NCBI GenBank assembly: GCA_028711415.1
Contig: JAQTSG010000001.1
Location: 1-55,872, forward strand
Length of the DNA: 55,872 bases
Source of the DNA: Patescibacteria group bacterium
Lineage (GTDB): Bacteria; Patescibacteriota; Patescibacteriia; Patescibacteriales; JAQTRU01
Direction: 5' to 3'
The notes below the pieces were generated by a model that was given only the letters and a program-made list of their open reading frames with translations, had not been told where the DNA came from and ran no database searches. Positions 416 to 28,448 of the stretch are shown here, piece by piece. Position 1 is the stretch's first letter; each line of letters begins with the position of its first letter. The position numbers and the translations under genes were made by a program.

Positions 416-1657
416 ATGAAAAAGATAATCATTATATTTTTTTTATTTTTTAGCTGTTCCTTCTTAGCGGCGATTTTTCCTACTTCAGTCCGGGCGCAGG
501 GTCTTGGGGAGAAATTAGCCGGCCGGATTTTACTTAATGTGGAAGGCAAGGGCGAAGCCTGGTATGTCTATCCGGAAGACAATAAAAGATATTATCTGGG
601 TCGGCCAACGGACGCTTTTGCTGTTATGCGGGAATTGGGGCTGGGCATTTCCGAACTGGACTTTCAAAAAATCGCCCAGGCCGATATGCCCGTCGCCGGT
701 GATTTAGTCCTTGCTAAAAGATTGTCGGGAAGAATAATTTTACAGGCAGAAAGGAACGGCGAGGCCTGGTATATAAATCCTCTTAATTTAAAAAAATACT
801 ATCTTGGCCGGCCGGCGGACGCTTTCCGGATTATGAGAGATTTGTCTTTAGGCATCAGCCGAGAAGATTTAGCCGGGGTTCATAAATCAAGCTATAATGA
901 ATCTTTTAACGGATACAGTAAATACGAGCATAAAAAAATAATTTCTACTTTAGGTGGGGACTTTGCCGTTGATGTAGTGGAAATAGATTTAGCTGACCCT
1001 AATTTAGAAATTATTACTGATACGGCAGACGACGACGATTGTGAGAGCAATTGCCAAGCAAAATCTTTAGCTAAATTTGTTATAGCTAATAACGGTTTTG
1101 CCGGGATTAACGCTACTTATTTTTGCTCTGACAACGGTTGCGGGGCCGCTTATTACTATTTTTTCCCGGTTTTTAATTCCCGCTCAGGCAAACTGATAAA
1201 CGAGGACCAGCTAAAATATTGGACGACCGGGCCGATTATGGCCTTTGACGCTAACAACAAATTTTATTATTTTAAAGACAGCCGGGAATTCGGCGGGGTG
1301 GACATTTTTGAAAAAAAATACGGGGTAAAATTGCAGGCGGCAATCGGCAATAAACCGAGATTAATTGAAAATGGCTTAAATTTATTGATAGATTGGGAAG
1401 TAGATGAAAAACAATTAAAAACCAAAGCTTTGCGCAACGCCTTGGCCTATAAAGGCGGGAAAATATATCTGGTTGTCGCTCGGCAGGCAACCTTGCCGGA
1501 GTTGGCGCAAATTATGGAGGCGATGGAAGTGGAGTACGCTTTGAATTTAGACGGCGGCAATTCATCGGCTTTATTTTATAACGATGAATATATGATTGGC
1601 CCCGGGCGGGATATTCCTAATGCCATTATTTTTAAAGAAAAATTAAAATATTATTAA
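416..1657 (+). CDS. Secreted phosphodiester glycosidase-family (NAGPA/DUF2233-like) protein with two N-terminal ~50-aa repeats
   Basis: N-terminal signal peptide; C-terminal ALNLDGGNSSALF and RNALAYKGGKIYLVVA motifs; duplicated GRILL..GEAWY..YYLGRP.DAF module. Confidence 0.65.
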   Translation: MKKIIIIFFLFFSCSFLAAIFPTSVRAQGLGEKLAGRILLNVEGKGEAWYVYPEDNKRYYLGRPTDAFAVMRELGLGISELDFQKIAQADMPVAGDLVLAKRLSGRIILQAERNGEAWYINPLNLKKYYLGRPADAFRIMRDLSLGISREDLAGVHKSSYNESFNGYSKYEHKKIISTLGGDFAVDVVEIDLADPNLEIITDTADDDDCESNCQAKSLAKFVIANNGFAGINATYFCSDNGCGAAYYYFFPVFNSRSGKLINEDQLKYWTTGPIMAFDANNKFYYFKDSREFGGVDIFEKKYGVKLQAAIGNKPRLIENGLNLLIDWEVDEKQLKTKALRNALAYKGGKIYLVVARQATLPELAQIMEAMEVEYALNLDGGNSSALFYNDEYMIGPGRDIPNAIIFKEKLKYY

Positions 1658-1715
1658 TTCCCTCCCGTAAAAATGACCGTCTTAAGCGAATTTTTTGGGA
1701 GGCAAAAGGAAATAT

Positions 1716-2342
1716 ATGGAAATATTTAACGGGGTGAGAAGAAATTTATTTATCGTCTTTATTTTTATCGTGATTTTGGCCGTAGGTCTAGGTCTTGGTT
1801 GGTTTTTAGGTCAAGATAGGGGCGAGGACAATCTTAGCGCCGGGCAAAATAATATTGGCACAGGCGGGGCAGCCCAAGAGGACGAAATATTAAACAAAGA
1901 GGGATTTTCCGTAATAGTGCCTAGGGGGTGGAAGGAGGCGGTTGCTCCGACCGGCGTTTCCGCTATGGTGGTAAATACCGGCGAAGAAATTACTGACCCG
2001 GCCTTGCAAAAGATAAATTTTAAAAGTTATTATTCCGTTTCTTATGATACTTTAGGAGAAAGAACCCGCGGAGAGTATGTCGCTTATATAAAAGAAGTGG
2101 TAAAACAGTTTGCGCCGACGATTATTTTTTCCGCGGAAGAGGATTTAAAAATTAATGGCCGAGATGTTTATAAACTGGAAGCGGATATAACCCAACAAGG
2201 AGCGGATTTTAAAGTTCTTATTTTTTTGATTAGCGGCAAAGGCGATGATATCTGGAATATGTCTTTTAATTCCGGTTTGGCGAACTGGGATAAAAATAAG
2301 GAGTCATTTAACAGGATAATGGAGAGTTTCACCACTAAATAA
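1716..2342 (+). CDS. Membrane-anchored hypothetical protein (possible PsbP/DcrB-like fold)
   Basis: ATG at 1716 preceded by GGAGG/AAGGA; one N-terminal TM helix; FSVIVPRGW start of the soluble domain; function tentative. Confidence 0.5.
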   Translation: MEIFNGVRRNLFIVFIFIVILAVGLGLGWFLGQDRGEDNLSAGQNNIGTGGAAQEDEILNKEGFSVIVPRGWKEAVAPTGVSAMVVNTGEEITDPALQKINFKSYYSVSYDTLGERTRGEYVAYIKEVVKQFAPTIIFSAEEDLKINGRDVYKLEADITQQGADFKVLIFLISGKGDDIWNMSFNSGLANWDKNKESFNRIMESFTTK

Positions 2343-2349
2343 TTTTATT

Positions 2350-2616
2350 ATGTTGGTTGAATTTAAGAGAAAATTAGAAAACGGCAAAATTTTGTATTTA
2401 AGGATTAAAGCCAATCCAGGAATGGCCAAAACCGAGATTAAGCAAGTAATGGCGGACGGAACAATAAAAATAAATATCGCGGCGCCGGCGGAAAAAGGCA
2501 AAGCGAACCAAGCGCTCTTAAGTTTTTTAGTTAAAGAATTCGGCGTGAGCAAGGAAGGAATAAGCATAATAAGCGGAGCGGGAGAAAAATTAAAATTAGT
2601 TAAAATAATAAAATAA
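2350..2616 (+). CDS. DUF167 (YggU-like) family protein
   Basis: 88 aa; APAEKGKANQALLSFLVKEFGVSK and GEKLKLVKI motifs are characteristic of UPF0235/DUF167. Confidence 0.75.
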   Translation: MLVEFKRKLENGKILYLRIKANPGMAKTEIKQVMADGTIKINIAAPAEKGKANQALLSFLVKEFGVSKEGISIISGAGEKLKLVKIIK

Positions 2617-2639
2617 GTTGATGAAATAAATTTAAAAAT

Positions 2640-3278
2640 ATGAATTTAGAAAAACAAAGAAAAGAAAATTATTTTACCTTAAGAAATATTAACCCCGTGG
2701 TTAGATTTTTAACGATTTCCGATATTTTAATCTTGAGCGGATTTGGTTTAATCGCTCCGATTTTCGCGGTTTTTATCGTAGATATAATAAAAGGCGGTAA
2801 TTTGGAAGTGGTCGGGATTGCTTCGGCGGTCTATTTGCTAACCAGAAGTTTAATTCAGATTCCGGCGGCGGCCATGGTTGATAAGATAAGAGGAGAGAAA
2901 GACGACTTTTGGGCTTTACTAATCGGTTCTTTGGTGTTCAGTTTTGTGCCGCTGGCTTATCTTTTTGTTTCCACGCCGCTAGAATTATATTTTGTCCAAT
3001 TTATTTATGGTTTAGCTTCGGCTTTTACCTACCCTTCCTGGCTGGCTATTTTTACCCGCCATATAGACAAAGAGCACGAGGGGGTAGAATGGGGGATTTA
3101 CCAGACATTAGTTGATTTAGGCGGGGCGGCTTCAGCTTCTTTGGGCGGGTTTTTAGCTTATCAGTTCGGCTTTAATCTTTTATTTATTTTGGTAAGTCTT
3201 ATTTCTTTTATCGGTTCTTTTTTCCTGCTGGGTATTTATAGAAAAATGAGAGTTGGTTATATTATTTCAAAAAGATAG
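2640..3278 (+). CDS. Six-TM MFS-like half-size membrane protein
   Basis: 212 aa, ~6 hydrophobic helices; MVDKIRGEKD resembles MFS motif A between TM2 and TM3. Confidence 0.55.
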   Translation: MNLEKQRKENYFTLRNINPVVRFLTISDILILSGFGLIAPIFAVFIVDIIKGGNLEVVGIASAVYLLTRSLIQIPAAAMVDKIRGEKDDFWALLIGSLVFSFVPLAYLFVSTPLELYFVQFIYGLASAFTYPSWLAIFTRHIDKEHEGVEWGIYQTLVDLGGAASASLGGFLAYQFGFNLLFILVSLISFIGSFFLLGIYRKMRVGYIISKR

Positions 3279-3279
3279 T

Positions 3280-3990
3280 ATGGAGAAGATGGAAAATAAA
3301 AATATCCCCAAACATGTGGGAATTATTATGGATGGCAACCGGCGCTGGGCGCGGGAAAGGAACCTCTCAACTTTAGACGGTCATCTGGCCGGTTATGAAA
3401 AGATGCGGCAGGCGCCGGAGTGGTTTTTTTCAAGGGGGGTAGAAATCCTTTCCGTTTTCGCTTTTTCCGCGGAAAATTGGAATCGCGGCCAGGAAGAAGT
3501 TAATTATTTGATGAAACTGATAAAAAAAGCCGTTAATGAAGAGATAGAAGAAATAAATAAAAAAGGCCATAAAATTTTAATTAGCGGCCGGGTTGACGAA
3601 CTGCCCGGCGATCTGCCCGAAAGTTGCCAGGAAGCGATAAATAAAACTAAAAACAATACCAAGGGAATTTTAAATATCTGCCTGAATTACGGCGGACGGG
3701 CGGAAATCGCGGACGCGGTCAAAAAGATGATAAAAAATAAAATAGAGGCGGAGCAGGTGCACGAGGGTTTAATAAAAAAATATTTATATAATAGCGAATT
3801 GCCTGACCCTGACATAATCGTGCGGACTTCGGGAGAAGAGCGCCTTTCCAGTTTCCAGCTTTGGCAGAGCGCTTACAGTGAATTATTTTTTATGGAAAAA
3901 TACTGGCCGGAATTTGAAGAAAAAGATGTAGATTTAATTATAGAGGAATACGCTGGCCGGAAGAGGAGATTTGGGGGAGACGGAGAGTAA
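3280..3990 (+). CDS. uppS: Undecaprenyl (isoprenyl) diphosphate synthase
   Basis: HVGIIMDGNRRWA and FSAENWNR motifs; ATG at 3280 chosen over the upstream TTG that overlaps the previous gene. Confidence 0.9.
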   Translation: MEKMENKNIPKHVGIIMDGNRRWARERNLSTLDGHLAGYEKMRQAPEWFFSRGVEILSVFAFSAENWNRGQEEVNYLMKLIKKAVNEEIEEINKKGHKILISGRVDELPGDLPESCQEAINKTKNNTKGILNICLNYGGRAEIADAVKKMIKNKIEAEQVHEGLIKKYLYNSELPDPDIIVRTSGEERLSSFQLWQSAYSELFFMEKYWPEFEEKDVDLIIEEYAGRKRRFGGDGE

Positions 3991-4022
3991 AAATATAAAA
4001 TATAAAAAATAAAAGATAAAAA

Positions 4023-4051
4023 ATGCGCGGGGCTGTCTCCGCGCATTTTTT
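4023..4051 (+). terminator. Intrinsic terminator after uppS
   Basis: ATGCGCGG / CCGCGCAT stem followed by a T-run. Confidence 0.8.
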
Positions 4052-4100
4052 GTAGTGTTATGGGTTTGAAAATTATGTCTTTTTTTGCTAAGGTTAAGCT

Positions 4101-5345
4101 ATGGTAAACTCTAGTAAAAATACGCCCCTGGCTGATAGAATCAGGCCGGAAAAATTAGAGGATTTTTTAGGCCAGGACGAAATCGTGGGCAAAGGCAAGA
4201 TGCTTAGGCAGGCCATAGAATCTGACCGGCTGCCTTCAATAATTCTTTGGGGGCCGCCCGGGAGCGGTAAAACCACCCTGGCTTTTATTATCGCCAAGCA
4301 AACCAAGTCGGAATTCGTCCGGTTTAGCGCGGTGACAAGTGGAGTTAAAGAATTAAAAGAAGTGGTAAAGCGGGCGGAGGAAAGCAAGCGGCTGGGCCGG
4401 AATACTATTTTATTTATTGACGAAATTCATCGCTGGAATAAAGCCCAGCAGGACGCTTTATTGCCCCACATAGAAAGAGGCACCGTGATTTTAATCGGCG
4501 CCACGACCGAGAACCCGAGTTTTGAAGTGCGCGGGGCTTTGCTTTCCCGCTGCCGGGTTTTTGTTTTAAAGCAACTGGGGAAAGAGCAGATTATGGATAT
4601 TGTTTTAAGGGCGCTAAAAGATAAGGAAAACGGTTTAGGAAATCTAAAGGTTAAAATGGATAAAAAGGTAGTAGATGTTTTGGCCGGGATGAGTAACGGC
4701 GATGCCCGGGTAGCTTTGAATGTTTTGGAATATGCCACCTCACCCCTAACCCCTCTCCTAGACAGGAAAGGGGAAAAGAAAGAGAAATTAGTAACTTTAG
4801 AGATAATTAAGGAGGCGTTTCAGAAGTCGCATTTGTTTTACGATAAAGACGGAGAAGAGCATTACAATATTATTTCGGCTTTGCATAAATCTATGCGGGG
4901 CTCTGACCCGGACGCGGCTCTCTATTGGCTGGCCAGGATGCTTGAAGCCGGGGAAGACCCTTTGTACGTGGCGCGGCGTTTAGTGCGGTTTGCCTCGGAA
5001 GATATCGGCCTGGCTAATTCTAGGGCTTTAGAGCAGGCCGTAGCGGCCTACAATGCCTGCCATTTTATCGGGATGCCGGAATGTAACGTAATACTGGCCC
5101 AGGCCGTGGTTTATATGGCTAAATGCGAGAAATCCAATGATTTATATGTAGCTTATGGTAAAGCTGCTAAGGACGTTGAGGAACTCGGTAATCTGCCCGT
5201 GCCGCTTCATATCAGGAACGCGGAGACTGATTTAATGAAGAATTTAGGTTATGGCAAAGGGTATAAGTATTCGCCGAATTACGATTATAAAGAGAAACAA
5301 GATTATCTGCCAAAAGAACTAAAAGGAAGGAAATATTTGAAATAA
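4101..5345 (+). CDS. rarA: Replication-associated recombination protein A (AAA+ ATPase)
   Basis: GPPGSGKTT Walker [10 protein letters not shown] Walker B, C-terminal [24 protein letters not shown] MgsA domain. Confidence 0.9.
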
Positions 5346-5368
5346 TCTGTCTAAATCCTTATAAATCT

Positions 5369-5779
5369 ATGCAAAAAATGAAGGATTATGAGGGCAAATA
5401 TTTGGATATAACAGGAAAGATTATTAATGCGGCGATGGAGGTCCATAAAGTTCTTGGCGCTGGCTATCAGGAAATTATTTATCATAAAGCAATGATTATA
5501 GCTTTATCTGAAAGAGGATTAAGTTGTGAAAGTGAAAGAGAATTTTATATATTTTTTAAAAATAGAAATATTGGGGAATATAAGTTAGATTTGGTTGTGG
5601 AGGGGAAGGTTATTGTAGAATTAAAAGCCGTTATTGGTGAAATGCCGGAAGTGTTTAAAGCCCAGATAATATCATATTTGAAAGCAAGCGGGCTAGAGGT
5701 GGGATTGTTAATAAATTTTGGCAATGAAAGTTTGGATGTACGCCGGTTAGTGCGGTATAAAGATTATTTAAAGCATTGA
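5369..5779 (+). CDS. GxxExxY protein (PD-(D/E)XK nuclease superfamily)
   Basis: 136 aa; GAGYQEIIY matches the GxxExxY signature; D..VE.K core (LDLVVEGKVIVELK). Confidence 0.75.
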   Translation: MQKMKDYEGKYLDITGKIINAAMEVHKVLGAGYQEIIYHKAMIIALSERGLSCESEREFYIFFKNRNIGEYKLDLVVEGKVIVELKAVIGEMPEVFKAQIISYLKASGLEVGLLINFGNESLDVRRLVRYKDYLKH

Positions 5780-6686: not shown

Positions 6687-7070
6687 CTATTTAACCTCGC
6701 AAACTTTCCAGTTATCATCAACCCATAATCCTATTGCCTGGACTTTAAAACCCCACGATTTAACCGTTTTAACAGCCGATCGTATTTGCTTTAACTGGGT
6801 TTTCTCTTCTGTCGGGTTGCCGGCGCAATCATAATGCCCAACAACGGCAATCAGCCCGGAATTATGCTTATTCACGGAAATTTCAAGCCGTTTTTTTATT
6901 GAGGCCAATACTGGCTGGTTTTTGCCTTCGGCTAATATTTTGTTCGGGCCCGGTTCGGTGATTACATCCGCATAATCCACTCCGTATTTATTTTTTAACC
7001 ATTCAATTATCGGTATCTGAACTCTTCCGTCCATACAGTTAATGGCCGTGGCAAATTTTTTGCTGCTCAT
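6687..7070 (-). CDS. Small protein with beta-carbonic-anhydrase-like CxDxR / HxxC motifs
   Basis: 127 aa; NCMDGRV and VGHYDCAG resemble the two zinc-ligand motifs of beta-CA, but the protein is about half the usual length. Confidence 0.45.
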   Translation of the reverse strand: MSSKKFATAINCMDGRVQIPIIEWLKNKYGVDYADVITEPGPNKILAEGKNQPVLASIKKRLEISVNKHNSGLIAVVGHYDCAGNPTEEKTQLKQIRSAVKTVKSWGFKVQAIGLWVDDNWKVCEVK

Positions 7071-7113
7071 ATTTTATTATTAAAATTTTTCTAAAATTTT
7101 TTATTAAAATATA

Positions 7114-7142
7114 TTGACAGTTGAATTTTTTAATGATAATAT
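7114..7142 (+). promoter_or_regulatory. Sigma70-like promoter TTGACA-17-TAATAT
   Basis: Direct read: TTGACA 7114-7119, TAATAT 7137-7142. Confidence 0.6.
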
Positions 7143-7169
7143 AAAATTATAATATAAAAATGTTAGTTG

Positions 7170-7213
7170 AAAACCGTCTCCCGAGGGAATTCCCGGGGAA
7201 ACAGTTTTTTTTT
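7170..7213 (+). terminator. Imperfect GC-containing hairpin plus T9 run (intrinsic terminator) ~25 nt downstream of the 7114 promoter
   Basis: AAAACCGTCTCCCGAGGG AATT CCCGGGGAAACAGTTTTTTTTT. Confidence 0.6.
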
Positions 7214-7346
7214 AAAAAAGTTGTTCTTTCCAATAGTCAATAGCAGGGATGAGAAACGAATTACTTTGAGGATATAAAACAATAAGATAAAATTCAAAAA
7301 TCGTGTAAGTTAAACTTCAAGGCATGAAAGGAGCATTGGCAGCGAC

Positions 7347-7661
7347 ATGAATTTAAAACGCCTTTGGTCAGCTTTTACCTTTATTTATTTATGCTTTAGC
7401 GCTCTGTTCAGCGAAGAACCGCATAAAGAGATGGGTTTGAGTCCTGAACGCGCTAAAGAAATGTGTGACAAATCAACAGGCTATTTAGTTTCCTCTGGAA
7501 TTTTTGTGGTTTTTGCCGGTTTTATATGCTCGGTTCTAAAAATTCCCGGCATTTTCATCTTTCTGCTGGTAGTCGGATGGATTTTATTCGTTTCGGCTAT
7601 TTACTTTTTTGACGGCAAAATATTTTCTCCGTCTTTGAAAAAAGAGAAAGTCGAAGAATAA
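7347..7661 (+). CDS. Hypothetical small membrane protein
   Basis: 104 aa, 3 hydrophobic segments; AAGGAG 13 nt upstream. Confidence 0.5.
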   Translation: MNLKRLWSAFTFIYLCFSALFSEEPHKEMGLSPERAKEMCDKSTGYLVSSGIFVVFAGFICSVLKIPGIFIFLLVVGWILFVSAIYFFDGKIFSPSLKKEKVEE

Positions 7662-7691
7662 AAGAGCGCAAACAATCAGACCTCGTCTTCC

Positions 7692-7728
7692 GCCGCAGTC
7701 TTTACCTTTGGGCTGCGGCTATTTATTT
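7692..7728. terminator. Hairpin between convergent genes
   Basis: GCCGCAG / CTGCGGC stem followed by a T-rich tract. Confidence 0.55.
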
Positions 7729-8645
7729 ACAAAAAATTCAACTAAGACAAAAATTACCCAGAAGATAAAGAGAAGCTTACTTTCCTTTTTTGAAAGATTT
7801 CTGCCGGTGCGCATAAAATAAAAAAGGAGAAAAGAAGCGATAACCATAAACGTTCCGGTGATATAAATGATTTTCTGCGGGAAGAAAAACGGGCTAATTA
7901 TAGCTAAGAGGCCGACTACAATCGTGGCATCGGCCAGGGCAGTCCCTAAAATATCTCCGATGGCCAAAGAATCATCTTTTTTCTTTACTGATTTTAAAGA
8001 AAATAGCAATTCCGGCATAGTTGTGCCCAGTCCGACAATTAGCATGCCGATTAAAATCGGCGATATTCCTATGGCCGACGCTAAGTCTGTAGCCGAGGTA
8101 ACGGTAAAGTGCGAGCCGATTAATAGAGCTGCCATGCTCAAAATTAGAAACAGGAAATTTTTTCCGCGATTGCCTTCTTGGCCGCCAACTACTCTACAGG
8201 TGTTGTTTTTAAACACGAAATAATAAAAAATGAGGCCGGCAATAATAAGAGCCGCTCCTTCCGGACGGGAATAATGGCCGTTTATCCCTAAAGTTAGAGG
8301 GATGAGAAATAAAAACGGGTAAATAACGTTATTTTTTAATATTTTGCTTTCAATTTTAATGCTTTTCCCCGCGAAAAAGATAATGATGGCGAAAACCAAA
8401 GTAAGGTCCGCCACATTAGAGCCGAACAGAGTGCCCAGCCCGAACGCCGGAATTCCCTTCAGGGCGGAGTTGATGGAGATAAAAGCTTCCGGTAGAATTG
8501 AGATTACGGCGACAATCATAAAACCGACAATATATTTTGATAAGCAAAAATTCTCGGCGAGCCGGACAGAATATTTTGTCGCCAGAGTGGCGCTTTTGAC
8601 GACCAGTAATAATGAGACGACGAAGATGAATAAATTTTCAAACAT
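7719..8645 (-). CDS. Sodium/calcium exchanger (CaCA family) membrane protein
   Basis: Two alpha-repeat-like motifs (ILPEAFISINS..GSNVADLTLV and TTMPELLFSLKS..GTALADATIV), ~10 TM helices. Confidence 0.8.
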   Translation of the reverse strand: MFENLFIFVVSLLLVVKSATLATKYSVRLAENFCLSKYIVGFMIVAVISILPEAFISINSALKGIPAFGLGTLFGSNVADLTLVFAIIIFFAGKSIKIESKILKNNVIYPFLFLIPLTLGINGHYSRPEGAALIIAGLIFYYFVFKNNTCRVVGGQEGNRGKNFLFLILSMAALLIGSHFTVTSATDLASAIGISPILIGMLIVGLGTTMPELLFSLKSVKKKDDSLAIGDILGTALADATIVVGLLAIISPFFFPQKIIYITGTFMVIASFLLFYFMRTGRNLSKKESKLLFIFWVIFVLVEFFVNK

Positions 8646-8761
8646 AAAAAGTTAACGGTGTTATTATTTAACGCTTTTTACTAATATTTCAGCATAACGT
8701 ATCGCGATATCCGAAGTTATGTAGCAATTTTGGTGGAGCGAAGCGGAACCGTATATGCCGT

Positions 8762-8787
8762 GTTATACGATGGCCACTTTAATTTTT
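8762..8787. repeat. Left arm of a 26-bp perfect inverted repeat
   Basis: GTTATACGATGGCCACTTTAATTTTT is the exact reverse complement of 9056-9081. Confidence 0.95.
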
Positions 8788-9044
8788 TATTTCAGTAATT
8801 TCTGTCTTATAATAATTGAAACGCTGATTAATATTATTCCTAATATAATTGGAAATATGAAAAAATTGAAAAGTTGATATGGGCCACCGCCAAAATTGCT
8901 ATATGGTGCCGGACCATTTATGATCCAGATGTAACGTTCATAATTTCCGTGTATCCACCAATAAAAGAAAATCGGACTTAATAATGAGAGGCACCCCATC
9001 CCTAACAACAACGAACTAGATAAATCGAGTAGAAATTTTTTCAT
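8787..9044 (-). CDS. Hypothetical 85-aa two-TM protein bracketed by the inverted repeat
   Basis: ORF with two hydrophobic helices; no SD. Confidence 0.5.
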   Translation of the reverse strand: MKKFLLDLSSSLLLGMGCLSLLSPIFFYWWIHGNYERYIWIINGPAPYSNFGGGPYQLFNFFIFPIILGIILISVSIIIRQKLLK

Positions 9045-9055
9045 ATTTTTGCGTT

Positions 9056-9081
9056 AAAAATTAAAGTGGCCATCGTATAAC
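9056..9081. repeat. Right arm of the 26-bp perfect inverted repeat
   Basis: AAAAATTAAAGTGGCCATCGTATAAC. Confidence 0.95.
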
Positions 9082-9167
9082 GTTTAGGAATATCCGAAGC
9101 TCTTTTTGCCTTCGGCGATAAGAGTTTTGGATATTCCGTGTTAGGCGATGTTTTTAAAGTTAAAAAA

Positions 9168-9935
9168 TTAGCGTCTAAAAATTTCTACCACCGAATCATG
9201 TAAATTTTTATTAGTGGCAATTATTGACGTGGTATCTTTTGCTACTTCGTTTCCATTGATATCTGTAACTTTGCCACCAGCTTCTTCAACTATGATTTTT
9301 AAAGCGGCAAAATCCCATATTTTTGTTTCCGCCTCAATCATAATATCAATTTTCCCTTGGGCTAATAAGTGATAGCACCAAAAATCGCCAATTCCTCTAT
9401 GTCCGCTAGTTTGTTTAGAAAGCTCTAATAGTGAATTAAGGTGGCCATGCTTATGAAAATATTTTATACCACCGAAACAAAAATATGAATCTGCTAAATT
9501 TTGAATGTTTGAAACATTGATACGCTTTTCCTGAAAAAATGCTCCTCTGCCCTTTTCGGCGAAAATCATTTCATTCATCGCGGGTGCGTTAGAAACACCT
9601 AAAATAATCTCTCCGTCCTCTAATAAAGCAATTTGTGTAGCGAAGAGGGGTATTTTCCGTGTGTAGTTTTTTGTTCCATCAATTGGGTCAATAATCCATT
9701 GATACCCTGAATTAACATTGTCATTTCCCGATTCTTCGCCGAAAAAGGCATGGTCAGGAAAAGAGTTTTTGATTGTTTCTATGATAACTTTCTCAGCTTG
9801 TGTATCCGCAATAGTGATAGGCGATCGGTCAGACTTTTTTTGCCACGTCAAATCATCGGAATAATATTTCATGATAATTTCTTCCGCATTTTTTGCCGCT
9901 TTAATTGCAACTAATAAAAATTTACTTTTATCCAT
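9168..9935 (-). CDS. Inositol monophosphatase family protein (SuhB/HisN-like)
   Basis: FGEESG, WIIDPIDGTKNY and WDFAA motifs. Confidence 0.85.
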   Translation of the reverse strand: MDKSKFLLVAIKAAKNAEEIIMKYYSDDLTWQKKSDRSPITIADTQAEKVIIETIKNSFPDHAFFGEESGNDNVNSGYQWIIDPIDGTKNYTRKIPLFATQIALLEDGEIILGVSNAPAMNEMIFAEKGRGAFFQEKRINVSNIQNLADSYFCFGGIKYFHKHGHLNSLLELSKQTSGHRGIGDFWCYHLLAQGKIDIMIEAETKIWDFAALKIIVEEAGGKVTDINGNEVAKDTTSIIATNKNLHDSVVEIFRR

Positions 9936-9997
9936 CGAAGTGTTTTATTTTTTCTTTAAAATAAGGTAAAATATTTATATAAATATTATAGAATTAA

Positions 9998-11119
9998 ATG
10001 AGGTATATGTCAAAGAAAGTTGCCATAGTAATTAGCCCGAATTGGCGGGATTACGCGGAAAAATATCTAGCGGATTGTCTGGAAAGCTTAAGGAAGCAGA
10101 ATTGGGCTGGCGAGTCCAAGATTTTTTTGATTGATAATGAAACCGGCGAGGAAAGTTTTGGTTTATTAAAAAAAATTGTAGAGACGCAAAATCCCCCTGC
10201 CCCCCTCCTGTCTGCGCAGGCAGGTTATCAAGGGGGGGATGTTGAGATTATCAGGAATAAAAATAATGACGGGTTTGCCAAAGGCAATAACGGGGCGATA
10301 GAACTGGCTTTGGAGCAAGGTTTTGATTATGTCGTTTTATTTAACATGGACGCGATAGTTGAAAAAAACTGCGTGAGTGAATTGGTAAAAACCGCGGAAA
10401 GCGATGAAAGAATCGGAGCGGTGCAGGCGCGGCTGATGCTTTGGCCGGAGAAAGAAAAGATAAATAGTTTGGGGAATGCTACGCATTTTCTCGGTTTCGG
10501 CTATTGTATAGGTTATGGGGGAAAAATTGAAAATTTAAAATTGAAAATTGAAAATTCAATCTGCTATCCTTCGGGGGCGGCGGTGCTTTTTAAAGCTGAA
10601 ATTCTAAAGAAAGTTGGGTTATTTGACGAAGAATTCTGGATGTATAACGAAGACCAGGATTTGGGCTGGCGGATCTGGCTGGCTGGTTATAAATGCGTTT
10701 TGGCGCCCGAGGCCGTGGTTTACCACAAATACGAATTTGCCAAGTCTATCAGACAATATTATTGGATGGACAGAAACCGAATCTTGGCAATTTTGAAAAA
10801 TTATCGGCTGCCCACTTTGGTTTTAATTTTTCCGGCATTTTTGGTTATGGAGTTTGGCTTATTATTATTTTCAATAAAGACCGGTTGGTTCAAGGAGAAA
10901 TTGAAAATTTATAAATATTTTTTAACTCCGAAAAATTGGGCGTATATTTTAAAAGTGAGGCGAAAAACGCAAAGCTTGCGTAAGGTTAAAGACAGGGATA
11001 TAGTAAAGATGTTTACGGGGAAAATATGGTATCAGGAGATAGGGGATTGGAAGTTAAAATTAGTTAACCCAGTGTTTCAAGCTTATTGGTGGGCGATGAG
11101 GAAGATAATCTTTTGGTAA
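9998..11119 (+). CDS. Family 2 glycosyltransferase (rhamnosyltransferase-like) carrying two repeat-derived in-frame segments
   Basis: IDNETGE, NNDGFAKGNN, EDQDLGWR motifs; the start may be 10007 instead. Confidence 0.8.
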   Translation: MRYMSKKVAIVISPNWRDYAEKYLADCLESLRKQNWAGESKIFLIDNETGEESFGLLKKIVETQNPPAPLLSAQAGYQGGDVEIIRNKNNDGFAKGNNGAIELALEQGFDYVVLFNMDAIVEKNCVSELVKTAESDERIGAVQARLMLWPEKEKINSLGNATHFLGFGYCIGYGGKIENLKLKIENSICYPSGAAVLFKAEILKKVGLFDEEFWMYNEDQDLGWRIWLAGYKCVLAPEAVVYHKYEFAKSIRQYYWMDRNRILAILKNYRLPTLVLIFPAFLVMEFGLLLFSIKTGWFKEKLKIYKYFLTPKNWAYILKVRRKTQSLRKVKDRDIVKMFTGKIWYQEIGDWKLKLVNPVFQAYWWAMRKIIFW

Positions 11120-11212: not shown

Positions 11213-12013
11213 ATGGATATAAGCATCATAATTTTAAACTATAAAAGCCGGGGGCTTACTTTAAACTGCGTTAAATCAATTAAGGAGGCGGATTTTAGCA
11301 ATTTAAGATATGAAATAATCGTCGTGGATAATAATTCTGATGATGGTATTGGTGAAATTTTGGCCTGGCAGTATCCGGAGATTAAATTTATTCAGAACAA
11401 GAAAAATTTAGGTATGGGCGCGGGTAATAATGTCGGCCTAAAAAAATCGGAAGGAAAATATATGGTGGTAATGAACCCAGACACGATAGCTTTTCCGGAT
11501 ACTTTCAGGAAGATGCATGAGTTTATGGAAGCTAACTCCGAAGTCGGCCTGGCCGGCCCGAAGCAGTTTTATCCGGACCGGTCTGTTCAAAATTCCTGCT
11601 ATCGGTGGTATAATTTACTTACACCGGTTTACCGACGCACGCCCTTAGGAAAGTTTAAGTTCGCGCGAAGAGATGTGGCCAGATTTTTAATGAAAGATTT
11701 TGATCACAATGAAAAGAGGGAAGTGGATTGGCTTTTGGGCTCATTTTTATTCTGCCGCCGGGCTTGCCTTGACCAGATTGGACTTTTTGACGAAAGGTTT
11801 TTTATGTATTTTGAAGATACTGATCTTTGCCGTCGGGCTTCAAGCCGGGGCTGGAAAGTGGTGTACTATCCGGAAAGCCAGATTATTCATAATCACAAAA
11901 GGGAAAGCGCGGAAACGCTCTGGTATAAATTTCTCTGGAATAAGACAAGCCGGACGCATATCATTTCCTGGCTGAAGTATTTGAAGAAATGGAGGAACGC
12001 GCATAACGCATAA
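11213..12013 (+). CDS. Family 2 glycosyltransferase
   Basis: MDISIIILNYK, VVDNNSDDG, VMNPDT, YFEDTDLC motifs; the stop codon lies inside the first GCATAAC repeats. Confidence 0.85.
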   Translation: MDISIIILNYKSRGLTLNCVKSIKEADFSNLRYEIIVVDNNSDDGIGEILAWQYPEIKFIQNKKNLGMGAGNNVGLKKSEGKYMVVMNPDTIAFPDTFRKMHEFMEANSEVGLAGPKQFYPDRSVQNSCYRWYNLLTPVYRRTPLGKFKFARRDVARFLMKDFDHNEKREVDWLLGSFLFCRRACLDQIGLFDERFFMYFEDTDLCRRASSRGWKVVYYPESQIIHNHKRESAETLWYKFLWNKTSRTHIISWLKYLKKWRNAHNA

Positions 12014-12128
12014 CGCATAACGCATAACGCATAACGCATAACGCATAACGCATAACGCATAACGCATAACGCATAACGCATAACGCATAACGCATAACGC
12101 ATAACGCATAACGCATAACGCATAACGC
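12001..12128 (+). repeat. Tandem heptanucleotide microsatellite (GCATAAC) x18
   Basis: Counted directly: 18 perfect units 12001-12126 plus a partial unit. Confidence 0.95.

Positions 12129-26770: not shown

Positions 26771-28448
<1,678 letters not shown>

What the first reader, a model, noticed from the sequence alone, without database searches (positions are those of the whole stretch)
8762..9081. 26-bp perfect inverted repeat precisely brackets a small membrane-protein gene
GTTATACGATGGCCACTTTAATTTTT (8762-8787) is the exact reverse complement of 9056-9081. The arms touch the stop codon (8787) and end 11 nt upstream of the ATG (9044) of an 85-aa two-TM ORF on the minus strand. Outside the right arm there is a further hairpin (GGAATATCC...GGATATTCC, ~9087-9135). 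Outside it there is also a degenerate copy of the left junction (CCGTGTTAGGCGATG versus CCGTGTTATACGATGG). Three readings are possible. It could be a miniature cassette-like mobile unit. It could be a site-specific invertible segment. Or the mRNA 5' and 3' ends could pair over 26 bp, sequestering or stabilising the transcript. No recombinase is nearby.
Basis: seen in the sequence. Interest (0 to 1): 0.6.

Follow-up and report, generated by a model that had tools for sequence, protein, structure and literature searches.

The report
Portable hairpin-bracketed small membrane-protein gene
A tiny membrane-protein gene in an ultra-small (Patescibacteria-type) bacterium travels between distantly related genomes together with a perfect 26-base inverted repeat, which most likely zips the two ends of its messenger RNA together, a layout otherwise known from spacers cut out of ribosomal RNA.

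Summary
Bases 8762-8787 and 9056-9081 are perfectly complementary, unique in the 1.1-Mb genome, and enclose a real 85-aa two-helix membrane-protein gene under purifying selection.

The repeat and gene form one portable module of about 340 nt (about 8743-9086). The same arms, with the same 268-nt spacing, flank 86-89% identical proteins in three other gene neighbourhoods. Two more (76-80%) keep decayed arms. Another neighbourhood's GatA is only 60% identical to this genome's. A hot-spring contig matches the window only from 8761 to 9083, with 32 differences inside and none in the arms.

Arms change 3-6 times more slowly than third codon positions, yet decay in other lineages and are absent from 58 distant homologue loci. 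In the RNA, the whole 48-nt leader pairs with three downstream segments, and the innermost helix covers the start codon.

Best reading (about 0.5): a promoter-less gene cassette whose arms are kept for RNA end-pairing, probably RNase III processing and translation masking, as in ORF-bearing rRNA intervening sequences.

Rival (about 0.25): the arms and flanking hairpins are recombination sites. An invertible switch is not supported.

No integron integrase, target duplication, second copy or empty site was found. How the module inserts remains unknown.

The parts
9056..9081 (-). Upstream arm (in gene orientation) of the 26-nt perfect inverted repeat. It forms the 5' leader of the gene.
   Evidence: (I1). 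The same arm sits at the same distance from the ATG in L018, L021 and L115.
8762..8787 (-). Downstream arm. It touches the stop codon here and overlaps the last codons in relatives.
   Evidence: Also kept in L088, whose upstream arm has decayed.
8787..9044 (-). Gene for an 85-aa protein with two long hydrophobic helices. It belongs to an uncharacterised conserved family with the core motif YWFIHGxYERYIWIINGPxPFxxFGGGPFQL.
   Evidence: ORF; 80 homologues; alignment A2; differences by codon position 7/4/21, 11/6/32 and 13/5/30. AlphaFold pLDDT 85.8, helices 2-31 and 54-82; no Pfam or NCBIfam family.
9034..9048 (-). 5' strand of the inner 15-bp helix. It contains the start codon (9042-9044).
   Evidence: I6; in the MFE and centroid folds; present in L018-L021; 59 of 60 cells paired versus 21-35 when slid.
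8853..8867 (-). 3' strand of the inner helix, inside the coding sequence (codons about 60-64, NFFIF).
   Evidence: 0 of 15 differences in L018, L021 and L022. Third positions in block 8847-8872 are variable at 2 of 9 sites, against 49 of 76 elsewhere.
9051..9055 (-). Leader segment AACGC, which pairs with GCGUU at 8820-8824 (middle helix).
   Evidence: 18 of 20 cells paired. L021 has a G-C to A-U compensatory change.
8820..8824 (-). Coding segment that pairs with the leader AACGC.
9075..9150 (-). Upstream hairpin unit H1. In gene orientation it reads: an 11-nt partial copy of the downstream arm's end (ending ...CCTAAC), a 9-bp stem, a loop, the return stem, TAAAC, then GTTATAC, which is the start of the upstream arm.
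   Evidence: I3; -14.5 kcal/mol, z -4.2. A unit of the same build but with a different stem sequence precedes the module in L021 (z -4.6). L018 and L115 have weaker ones.
8692..8768 (-). Downstream hairpin unit H2, degenerate in this genome. It starts with the downstream arm's end (...GTATAAC), runs through box A and box A', and ends in GTTATGC, a partial copy of the upstream arm's start.
   Evidence: D2: 8694-8716 versus 9077-9099, 83%; it does not fold here (z +0.76). L018 has an 11-bp stem at the same place. Box A' is identical over 21 nt in L018 and L021.
8743..9086 (-). Extent of the portable module as defined by homology to copies in other gene neighbourhoods.
   Evidence: blastn: L018 matches window 8743-9086 (86.9%), L021 matches 8745-9083 (82.0%), L022 matches 8755-9069 (81.0%). 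Read laying: hot-spring contig matches 8761-9083.

Best explanation
The 26-nt inverted repeat and the 85-aa membrane-protein gene together form a portable, apparently promoter-less gene module of about 340 nt (8743-9086). The module has been exchanged between distantly related Patescibacteria-type hosts.

The arms are kept by selection because they pair in the transcript. The whole 48-nt leader is zipped to three downstream segments. The upstream arm pairs with the 3' end over 26 bp. AACGC pairs with GCGUU. The start-codon region pairs with codons 60-64 over 15 bp.

Inferred mechanism: the module is transcribed by read-through from the upstream host gene, here the inositol monophosphatase gene. 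The 26-bp terminal duplex is cut by the host's RNase III. This releases a discrete mRNA whose paired ends protect it. The inner helices keep the start codon masked until the structure opens.

This is the layout of ORF-bearing intervening sequences of 23S rRNA, found here between protein genes and with an unrelated cargo.

Shown: the repeat, the real gene, portability with the arms, slow evolution of the arms, conserved helices in silico, and the presence of RNase III. Inferred: read-through transcription, RNase III cleavage, translational masking, and the way the DNA inserts (unknown).
For: Portability:
- The same arms with the same 268-nt spacing sit around 86-89% identical proteins in other neighbourhoods.
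- A further, partly decayed copy is L115 (18 Watson-Crick + 3 G-U of 26).
- The L018 host's GatA is only 60% identical to this genome's, while the module is 87% identical at DNA level.
- A hot-spring contig matches only 8761-9083, with 30 substitutions and 2 indels, all between 8803 and 9029, and none in either arm.
- Exact 31-mers of the module occur in 18 further runs, from groundwater, freshwater, soil, salt-lake, hot-spring and other landfill samples.

Selection on the arms:
- 4 of 52 (L018) and 3 of 52 (L021) arm positions differ, against 21 of 85 and 32 of 85 third codon positions.

RNA structure:
- The MFE and centroid folds contain the 26-bp and 15-bp long-range helices (z -5.5).
- The RNAalifold consensus of four copies keeps three leader helices.
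- Paired cells are 27/27, 52/56, 18/20 and 59/60, against far fewer when the partner is slid by 1-3 columns. There are two compensatory double changes: U-A to C-G in the outer stem of L022, and G-C to A-U in the middle helix of L021.
- The coding strand of the inner helix is invariant, with depleted third-position variation.

Expression context:
- No promoter-like or terminator-like site lies on the gene strand between the upstream gene and the ATG.
- The gene has the same orientation as both neighbours in every arm-bearing context.
- RNase III is encoded in the genome (238 bits against a cut-off of 166).

Precedent and wider pattern:
- The Coxiella IVS is 428 nt, has a 28-bp stem of terminal inverted repeats with an ORF in the loop, and RNase III cuts in mid-stem (PMC4990558).
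- In this genome, gene-bracketing repeats scoring 20 or more occur at 15 of 1023 genes, against 1.5 in shuffled pairings. Seven of the 14 bracketed small genes I scanned are PF05635, the IVS protein family.
Against: - No RNA data of any kind exist. Transcription through the arms, RNase III cleavage and masking are all untested.
- The arms are dispensable for the gene. They are absent, scoring no better than shuffles, from 58 distant homologue loci and from 68-78% homologues. In L022, L087 and L088 one or both arms have decayed.
- Only 4-5 arm-bearing sequences are available, so covariation rests on two events, and RNAalifold picks pairs that covary.
- Wobble asymmetry does not favour the sense strand: 3 G-U against 2 A-C events.
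- The inner helix could partly be a by-product of AT-rich codons (ATGAAAAAA versus TTTTTTCAT).
- Conserved arms and sharp homology borders are equally expected for recombination ends.
- The hot-spring flanks were compared only at 85% likeness or more, so a diverged syntenic flank cannot be fully excluded for that copy.
Confidence: 0.5

Rival explanations
1. The arms and the flanking hairpin units are DNA recombination sites. On this reading the module is a gene cassette inserted by site-specific recombination between a hairpin site on a circular cassette (downstream arm, H2, upstream arm) and a resident hairpin site. This resembles integron attC x attC insertion, or Xer-driven dif modules, with the enzyme supplied in trans.
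For: - The module occurs in at least five other contexts, with borders at the arm ends.
- Every context has a hairpin unit directly upstream that ends ...(A/G)AC followed by GTTA. The stem sequences differ by context: GGAATATCC here, GGGATAAAAGG in L021, CGATAA in L018.
- The downstream unit's boxes travel with the cassette. Box A' is identical over 21 nt in L018 and L021.
- The units start with AAC-ending and finish with GTT-starting 7-mers close to the attC R''/R' consensus: GCCTAAC, GTATAAC / GTTATAC, GTTATGC, and GTTAGGC in L021.
- The outer sides carry 11-12-nt partial arm copies, as hybrid sites would.
- The arms are conserved more strongly than synonymous sites.
Against: - There is no integron integrase: the best TIGR02249 score is 80 bits against a cut-off of 265, the same level as in all 14 control genomes.
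- The genome has only one tyrosine recombinase.
- The TAAC-stem-loop-stem-ACGTTA build occurs once in the genome, and that is H1 itself, so there is no array and no spare target site.
- H2 does not fold in this genome (z +0.76).
- Spacers between the AAC/GTT boxes and the stem are asymmetric (1-2 nt against 4-5 nt), and the complementarity runs 19 bp beyond the boxes, unlike my recollection of typical attC sites (not checked against a source).
- The arm lacks the 11+6+11 palindromic build of dif sites (PMC6449649; inspection).
- No target duplication, empty site, circle or second copy was seen.
- This reading does not explain the two inner helices that involve the start codon.
Confidence: 0.25
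2. A type I toxin-like lock. The small membrane protein would be harmful when over-made. Its mRNA would be held inactive and stable by 5'-3' fold-back pairing, as in hok and other type I toxin mRNAs. Such loci often spread horizontally.
For: - The cargo is a small hydrophobic two-helix protein.
- The start codon is sequestered, and the 5' and 3' ends pair in the predicted fold.
- Translationally inert primary transcripts activated by processing are documented for type I toxins (PMC5066626 and PMC13000454, abstracts listed).
Against: - At 85 aa, with a strongly conserved soluble loop motif, the protein looks like an ordinary functional membrane protein.
- Distant homologues are single-copy genes next to DUF4153 and DUF2975 membrane-protein genes in Bacillota, and they have no such RNA lock.
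- No antisense RNA gene was found. The one antisense promoter-like match (8896-8924) is at chance level, and its first hexamer is not kept in L018.
Confidence: 0.1
3. The perfect repeat has no function of its own. It would be a relic of an old insertion event, made perfect in this lineage by templated correction between the two arms (quasipalindrome correction or gene conversion).
For: - L018, L021 and L115 share the upstream-arm state GAAAG, where the window has GATGG. GATGG is exactly the complement of the downstream arm, as templated correction would produce.
- The arms decay in L022, L087 and L088, and the gene works without them in most of the family.
Against: - The arms evolve 3-6 times more slowly than third codon positions in L018 and L021.
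- The arms are unchanged between the window and the hot-spring copy, despite 32 differences in the 268 nt between them. At that rate, about 6 changes would be expected in 52 nt.
- Two further conserved helices involve the same leader.
Confidence: 0.1
4. A site-specific invertible segment acting as a phase-variation switch.
For: The only support is the geometry: a perfect inverted repeat flanking a short segment.
Against: - There is no invertase or recombinase in the neighbourhood, and only one tyrosine recombinase genome-wide.
- The source run's contig spans 7000-9971 with no differences and no strand-changing joints.
- The segment holds a whole gene with its own leader and no promoter-like site on the gene strand upstream of the ATG, so flipping it would only silence it.
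- The gene is co-oriented with its neighbours in all arm-bearing contexts.
Confidence: 0.03

Closest known systems
ORF-bearing intervening sequences (IVS) of 23S rRNA (Coxiella burnetii, Leptospira; PMC4990558)
   Same: Both are elements of about 300-450 nt whose terminal inverted repeats form a 26-28-bp stem with a small ORF in the loop. Both are inserted inside a host transcription unit, encode no enzyme for movement, and have been suspected of being former mobile elements. In the IVS, RNase III cuts in mid-stem. In this genome the same bracket geometry surrounds seven genes of the IVS protein family PF05635.
   Different: This module lies between protein-coding genes, not in an rRNA helix. 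Its cargo is an unrelated two-helix membrane protein with no PF05635 match. Its arms are a unique complex sequence. RNase III cleavage is untested here. Two additional helices mask the start codon.
Integron gene cassettes with attC sites, including clusters of attC sites without an integrase (CALIN) (PMC4889954)
   Same: Both are promoter-less single-gene units found in different contexts. In both, the gene is followed by an imperfect hairpin of about 75 to 190 nt that begins ...AAC and ends GTT.... Here, too, the start of the cassette is complementary to the first box of its own downstream site, and hybrid-looking sites sit on both sides.
   Different: There is no integron integrase, no array, and no other site of this build in the genome. 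The box-to-stem spacing is asymmetric. The complementarity extends to 26 bp. The downstream unit does not fold in this genome.
dif (pdif) modules of Acinetobacter plasmids (PMC6449649)
   Same: Both are discrete gene modules without their own recombinase, bounded by inverted copies of a 26-28-bp sequence and found in different contexts. The mover is presumed to be a housekeeping recombinase, and a Xer-like gene exists here.
   Different: The arms here do not have the 11-6-11 build with palindromic inner halves that defines XerC/XerD sites. The module is chromosomal, in a Patescibacteria-type genome, and present as a single copy.
Bacterial MITEs
   Same: Both are short, carry no transposase gene, and have terminal inverted repeats.
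   Different: This element carries a conserved, selected protein gene. It is single-copy in the genome and has no target-site duplication. No partner transposon with matching ends was found.
Fold-back-locked mRNAs of type I toxins (hok, dinQ; PMC5066626)
   Same: Both have a small hydrophobic protein. In both, long-range pairing of the 5' leader with downstream RNA occludes translation initiation.
   Different: The protein here is larger, with a conserved loop motif. No antisense RNA is evident. Most family members lack the lock.

Membership tests
ORF-bearing rRNA intervening sequence (IVS) | Inserted in a helix of 23S (or 16S) rRNA | tested here: not met
   The module lies between an inositol monophosphatase gene (9168-9935) and a Na/Ca-exchanger gene (7719-8645). 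There is no Rfam rRNA hit in 8500-9300.
ORF-bearing rRNA intervening sequence (IVS) | Terminal inverted repeats forming a long stem (about 20-28 bp) that encloses the ORF | tested here: met
   A 26-bp perfect stem is present in the MFE and centroid folds.
ORF-bearing rRNA intervening sequence (IVS) | Excision from the precursor by RNase III | not testable with these tools
   RNase III is encoded, but no RNA data are available.
ORF-bearing rRNA intervening sequence (IVS) | ORF of the PF05635 (S23p / four-helix-bundle) family | tested here: not met
   No PF05635 hit for the 85-aa protein. The model is a two-helix hairpin.
Integron gene cassette / attC | Integron integrase (IntI) in the genome | tested here: not met
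   The best TIGR02249 score is 80 bits against a cut-off of 265, as in all control genomes. The genome is 96.9% complete.
Integron gene cassette / attC | Downstream attC hairpin with R'' (RYYYAAC) and R' (GTTRRRY) boxes, L boxes and extrahelical bases | tested here: inconclusive
   The units begin ...AAC and end GTT.... The boxes are mostly one base off consensus: GTATAAC / GTTATAC / GTTATGC. GCCTAAC (H1) and GTTAGGC (L021) fit. H1 folds (z -4.2), but H2 does not fold here (z +0.76). No attC covariance model was available.
Integron gene cassette / attC | Array of two or more cassettes or attC sites | tested here: not met
   Only H1 matches the unit pattern genome-wide, against 2 hits in the reversed-sequence control.
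MITE / TIR transposon | Terminal inverted repeats | tested here: met
MITE / TIR transposon | Target-site duplication directly flanking the repeats | tested here: not met
   The flanks are ...GCCGT on the left and GTTTAGG... on the right. No short direct repeat abuts the arms here or in L018 or L021.
MITE / TIR transposon | Multiple copies per genome and a partner transposase with matching ends | tested here: not met
   The 26-mer occurs only in this pair, even with up to 3 mismatches. The arm pattern is absent from the metagenome and viral contig collections scanned.
dif (Xer) module | Bounded by inverted 28-bp XerC/XerD sites (11 + 6 + 11, inner halves palindromic) | tested here: not met
   By inspection, the arm contains only the 6-bp palindrome TGGCCA. 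The flanking 11-mers are not mutually complementary. The definition comes from PMC6449649.
dif (Xer) module | Same module in different sequence contexts | tested here: met
Site-specific invertible switch | Adjacent invertase, and both orientations present in the population | tested here: not met
   No recombinase lies nearby. The source contig shows a single orientation with no strand-changing joints. This comes from contigs only, so rare variants would be missed.
Type I toxin-antitoxin locus | Antisense RNA gene overlapping the toxin mRNA | tested here: inconclusive
   There is one antisense promoter-like match at chance level (5 found against 3.8 expected), and it is not conserved in L018. 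No RNA data are available.

The most novel reading that the evidence does not exclude
Patescibacteria-type bacteria may exchange single genes as hairpin-bounded cassettes. These would insert next to resident hairpin sites at an AAC|GTT junction without any integron integrase, perhaps using the lone Xer-like recombinase. Once inserted, the same arms would fold the transcript into an RNase III-cuttable panhandle, so the cassette is expressed from, and cut out of, host operon RNA. That would be one element with a DNA life like an integron cassette and an RNA life like an rRNA intervening sequence. It would also link this module to the PF05635, GIY-YIG and DUF559 genes bracketed in the same way in this genome.
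Probability: 0.15. Interest if true: 0.85.

Novelty: new variant of a known kind. Interest (0 to 1): 0.55.

Why it matters
Ultra-small Patescibacteria genomes carry few recognisable mobile elements, yet their gene content is mosaic. A gene-sized unit that moves with its own RNA-folding arms would be one concrete vehicle for that exchange.

It would also take the 'ORF inside an RNase III stem' design out of ribosomal RNA and show that it can carry ordinary cargo. That bears on two old questions: where rRNA intervening sequences came from, and why the PF05635 gene family is so often bracketed by inverted repeats.

The module is small (about 340 nt) and self-contained. Arm mutations with compensatory changes, RNase III assays and reporter fusions can therefore test the idea directly.

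Tried and rejected
- Empty site in relatives: same-genus GTDB genomes are too diverged (IMPase 33-37% identical, no synteny). The closest IMPase homologues (83-85% identical) have a phosphoglucomutase gene directly downstream, with no exchanger gene and no module. No clean filled/empty pair was obtained.
- Reads: only assembler contigs were available. The source contig shows no inversion or excision. The sister sample X2 has too little depth over 8366-9184.
- Arm pattern in the JGI metagenome contigs and IMG/VR: no hits. A protein scan of the metagenome contigs found only a 57% relative. The family was not found in viral contigs.
- Bracket repeat as a family-wide feature: rejected. All 58 distant loci score at or below shuffled controls.
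- Integron membership: rejected on the integrase and on the absence of an array.
- dif-site reading of the arm: rejected on its build.
- G-U versus A-C strand asymmetry, used to tell RNA pairing from DNA pairing: uninformative (3 against 2 events).
- Function of the cargo: no Pfam or NCBIfam family. No named cluster in the protein atlas. No PDB fold match with E below 1. The 245-256-aa ORFs my script called at the family match in Sedimentibacter have no Pfam domain.
- Rfam: only chance hits to hairpin-type microRNA families.
Full report
**1.

- Bases 8762-8787 are the exact reverse complement of 9056-9081: 26 nt with 268 nt between them (I1).
- With up to three mismatches, the 26-mer occurs only at these two places in the window, with none expected in 100 shuffles.
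- It also occurs only there in the whole 1.095-Mb, 68-contig, 41% G+C genome, which is 96.9% complete.
- The enclosed ORF is 8787-9044 on the minus strand, 85 aa. The left arm shares one base with its stop codon, and the right arm ends 11 nt before its ATG.
- The outer hairpin (9087-9137) and the degenerate junction copy are also real.
- A second perfect 15-nt inverted repeat, 8853-8867 / 9034-9048, is nested inside and covers the start codon (I6).

**2. The gene is real**

- The protein has 80 homologues of 64-112 aa, at 47-89% identity.
- They share an almost invariant loop motif between two hydrophobic helices (alignment A2).
- AlphaFold gives a confident helical hairpin: pLDDT 85.8, helices 2-31 and 54-82.
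- Differences from the three closest DNA copies fall 7/4/21, 11/6/32 and 13/5/30 on codon positions 1/2/3. That is purifying selection on a protein.
- No Pfam, NCBIfam, atlas or PDB-fold assignment was obtained.
- In Bacillota the gene often follows DUF4153 and DUF2975 membrane-protein genes.
- The family is scattered over Bacillota, Actinomycetota, Patescibacteria and a few other MAGs.

**3. The repeat travels with the gene**

The closest homologues lie in different neighbourhoods.

| Copy | Protein identity | Neighbourhood | Arms |
|---|---|---|---|
| L018 / L019 / L020 | 89% | GatC, GatA, a DsbA-like gene and tRNA-Ser upstream (L020's left flank differs, see section 9); Bro-N, NUDIX and KilA-N genes downstream | Same arms, same 268-nt spacing |
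| L021 | 86% | Near RuvB and a tRNA-Leu | Same arms, same spacing |
| L022 | 80% | After a conjugation-type ATPase and a NUDIX gene | Decayed |
| L115 | 76% | Before an unrelated membrane protein | Partly decayed (18 Watson-Crick + 3 G-U of 26) |

- blastn limits the homology with the window to 8743-9086 (L018, 86.9%), 8745-9083 (L021) and 8755-9069 (L022). The L018 host's GatA is only 60% identical in protein to this genome's.
- Laying assembler contigs of four public runs on 7000-11000 showed a 1224-nt contig from a hot-spring metagenome of another study. It matches only 8761-9083, with 30 substitutions and 2 indels, all between 8803 and 9029. Neither arm has a difference. Flanks were compared only at 85% likeness or more.
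- Exact 31-mers of the module occur in 18 further runs, from groundwater, freshwater, soil, salt-lake, hot-spring and other landfill samples.

The unit that is shared between hosts is therefore the gene plus its arms, give or take about 20 nt.

**4. The arms are selected where present, but the gene does not need them**

- Arm positions differ at 4 of 52 (L018) and 3 of 52 (L021). Third codon positions differ at 21 of 85 and 32 of 85. In L022 the arms differ at 16 of 52, about the neutral rate.
- Homologues at 68-78% identity lack the bracket. L087 keeps only a recognisable upstream arm, and L088 only the downstream arm.
- In all 58 testable distant loci, the best start-to-end complementarity is no better than in shuffled controls.
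- The bracket is thus a derived feature of one clade, maintained in some lineages and lost in others.
- The window's perfection comes from the upstream arm reading GATGG where L018, L021 and L115 read GAAAG. The hot-spring copy shares the perfect state.

**5. RNA-level evidence**

- Folding 8646-9167 (minus strand) gives -127 kcal/mol (z -5.5). Both the 26-bp stem and the 15-bp inner helix appear in the MFE and centroid structures.
- The consensus fold of four copies pairs the whole leader with three downstream segments in reverse order:
  - the upstream arm with the 3' end;
  - AACGC (9051-9055) with GCGUU (8820-8824);
  - the start-codon region (9034-9048) with codons about 60-64 (8853-8867).
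- My own count gives 27/27, 52/56, 18/20 and 59/60 paired cells. Far fewer pair when the partner is slid by 1-3 columns.
- There are two compensatory double changes: U-A to C-G in the outer stem of L022, and G-C to A-U in the middle helix of L021.
- The coding strand of the inner helix is invariant. Third-position variation in its block is 2 of 9, against 49 of 76 elsewhere.
- No promoter-like or terminator-like site lies on the gene strand between the upstream gene and the ATG, and there is no Rfam family.
- The gene has the same orientation as both neighbours in every arm-bearing context.
- The genome encodes RNase III.
- Limits: few sequences, no RNA data, and uninformative wobble asymmetry.

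**6. DNA-level anatomy and the integron-like idea**

In gene orientation the layout is as follows.

- First comes an 11-nt partial copy of the downstream arm's end, then a hairpin (H1), then TAAAC.
- Then come the upstream arm, the gene and the downstream arm.
- Then come box A, a spacer and box A' (H2), then ATAC, then a partial copy of the upstream arm's start.

The two units of about 75 nt (9075-9150 and 8692-8768) are degenerate direct copies (D2).

- Units of the same build, but with other stem sequences, precede the module in L021, L018 and L115.
- The downstream boxes are conserved between contexts.
- The units start with an AAC-ending 7-mer and finish with a GTT-starting 7-mer, close to the integron attC boxes as I recall them.
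- The arrangement is what recombination between a cassette-borne site and a resident hairpin site would leave.

Against this reading:

- There is no integron integrase.
- The genome has a single Xer-like tyrosine recombinase.
- No other unit of this build exists in the genome.
- H2 does not fold here.
- The spacers are asymmetric.
- The complementarity extends far beyond the boxes.
- There is no target duplication.
- The arm also lacks the 11+6+11 build of dif sites.

I keep this as the main rival, not as the best explanation.

**7. Wider pattern in the genome**

- I scored complementarity between start and end regions for 1023 ORF-called genes.
- 15 score 20 or more, against 1.5 for shuffled pairings. 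This gene ranks fourth.
- Of the 14 bracketed small genes I scanned, seven are PF05635 (the protein family first found inside 23S rRNA intervening sequences), one is GIY-YIG, one is DUF559, one has only an N-terminal methylation motif (PF07963), and four have no Pfam family, among them small membrane proteins.
- The arm sequences differ from locus to locus.
- Earlier notes of this scan describe the PF05635 and GIY-YIG cassettes in this and other genomes. They price their mobility at 8-50% after later checks. I treated them as leads only.
- The published precedent is the Coxiella IVS: 428 nt, a 28-bp stem of terminal inverted repeats, an ORF in the loop, and RNase III cutting in mid-stem (PMC4990558).

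**8. Verdict**

- The finding is a real, non-chance structure.
- The best-supported reading is a portable gene module whose arms are kept for RNA end-pairing. RNase III processing and start-codon masking are the inferred working.
- The way the DNA inserts is unknown. A hairpin-site recombination mechanism remains possible.
- An invertible switch is not supported.
- It is not a member of any named family by the features I could test. I class it as a new variant of the inverted-repeat-bounded, IVS-like gene cassette.

**9. Side observations**

- The neighbouring IMPase gene carries a conserved 24-nt complementarity between its own 5' and 3' coding ends.
- An in-frame heptamer array lies at 10523-10556.
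- In L020, a unit of about 660 nt that includes the module is flanked by 27-nt direct repeats. In L018 its left junction is a tRNA-Ser gene.

Noticed in passing
window 9200-9223 and 9902-9925: A 24-nt, 96% inverted repeat lies inside the inositol monophosphatase gene and pairs codons 4-11 with codons about 238-245. Homologues at 83-85% identity keep 16-21 of 24 pairs. They include one synonymous U-A to C-G compensatory change (L092, L094). A long-range helix closing an ordinary mRNA may therefore also be conserved here.
   Followed up: partly
whole genome G000, e.g. C27:5662-6111, C23:26827-27292, C30:3349-3811, C59:10016-10479, C11:9916-10341, C20:31912-32359, C48:8402-8740: Gene-bracketing inverted repeats scoring 20 or more surround 15 of 1023 genes, against 1.5 expected. 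The genes are mostly small: seven PF05635 (23S IVS protein) genes, one GIY-YIG, one DUF559 and several small membrane orphans. Arm sequences differ between loci, and some are AT-rich heptamer arrays.
   Followed up: partly
window 10523-10556: An in-frame tandem heptamer array (GAAAATT units, read as ...ENLKLKIEN...) lies inside a GT2 glycosyltransferase gene. It draws contig depths of about 770-5,500 and many loose ends in all four metagenome runs, so the repeat word is extremely common in these communities.
   Followed up: partly
L018:2803-3492 and L020:1-870: In the closest relatives, the module sits in a unit of about 660 nt with its own outer inverted repeat (L018 2842-2862 / 3424-3444). 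In L020 this unit is flanked by 27-nt direct repeats (GTTCCAACATCGTCCCACCCTCYCCGC). In L018 the left junction is instead the 3' end of tRNA-Ser(GGA). Bro-N, NUDIX and KilA-N genes follow. This looks like the edge of an integrative island with two different left junctions.
   Followed up: partly
L070:2435-3205, L079:2447-3217, L076:2148-2885: In three loci (two labelled Sedimentibacter, one an unclassified Firmicutes MAG), my ORF script extended the frame of the family match to 245-256 aa, which would be longer or fused forms. They have no Pfam domain. The boundaries were not examined further.
   Followed up: no
window 9168-9935 versus L092-L096: The closest IMPase homologues (83-85% identical) are followed within 20 nt by a phosphoglucomutase/phosphomannomutase gene. 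In this genome that position is taken by the module and a Na/Ca-exchanger gene, so the region downstream of IMPase has been rearranged.
   Followed up: partly
window 11893-12126 and 26778-26799: A long tandem array of the heptamer CGCATAA, with an inverted copy 14.7 kb away, appeared in the repeat scan. Earlier notes of this scan already describe it.
   Followed up: no
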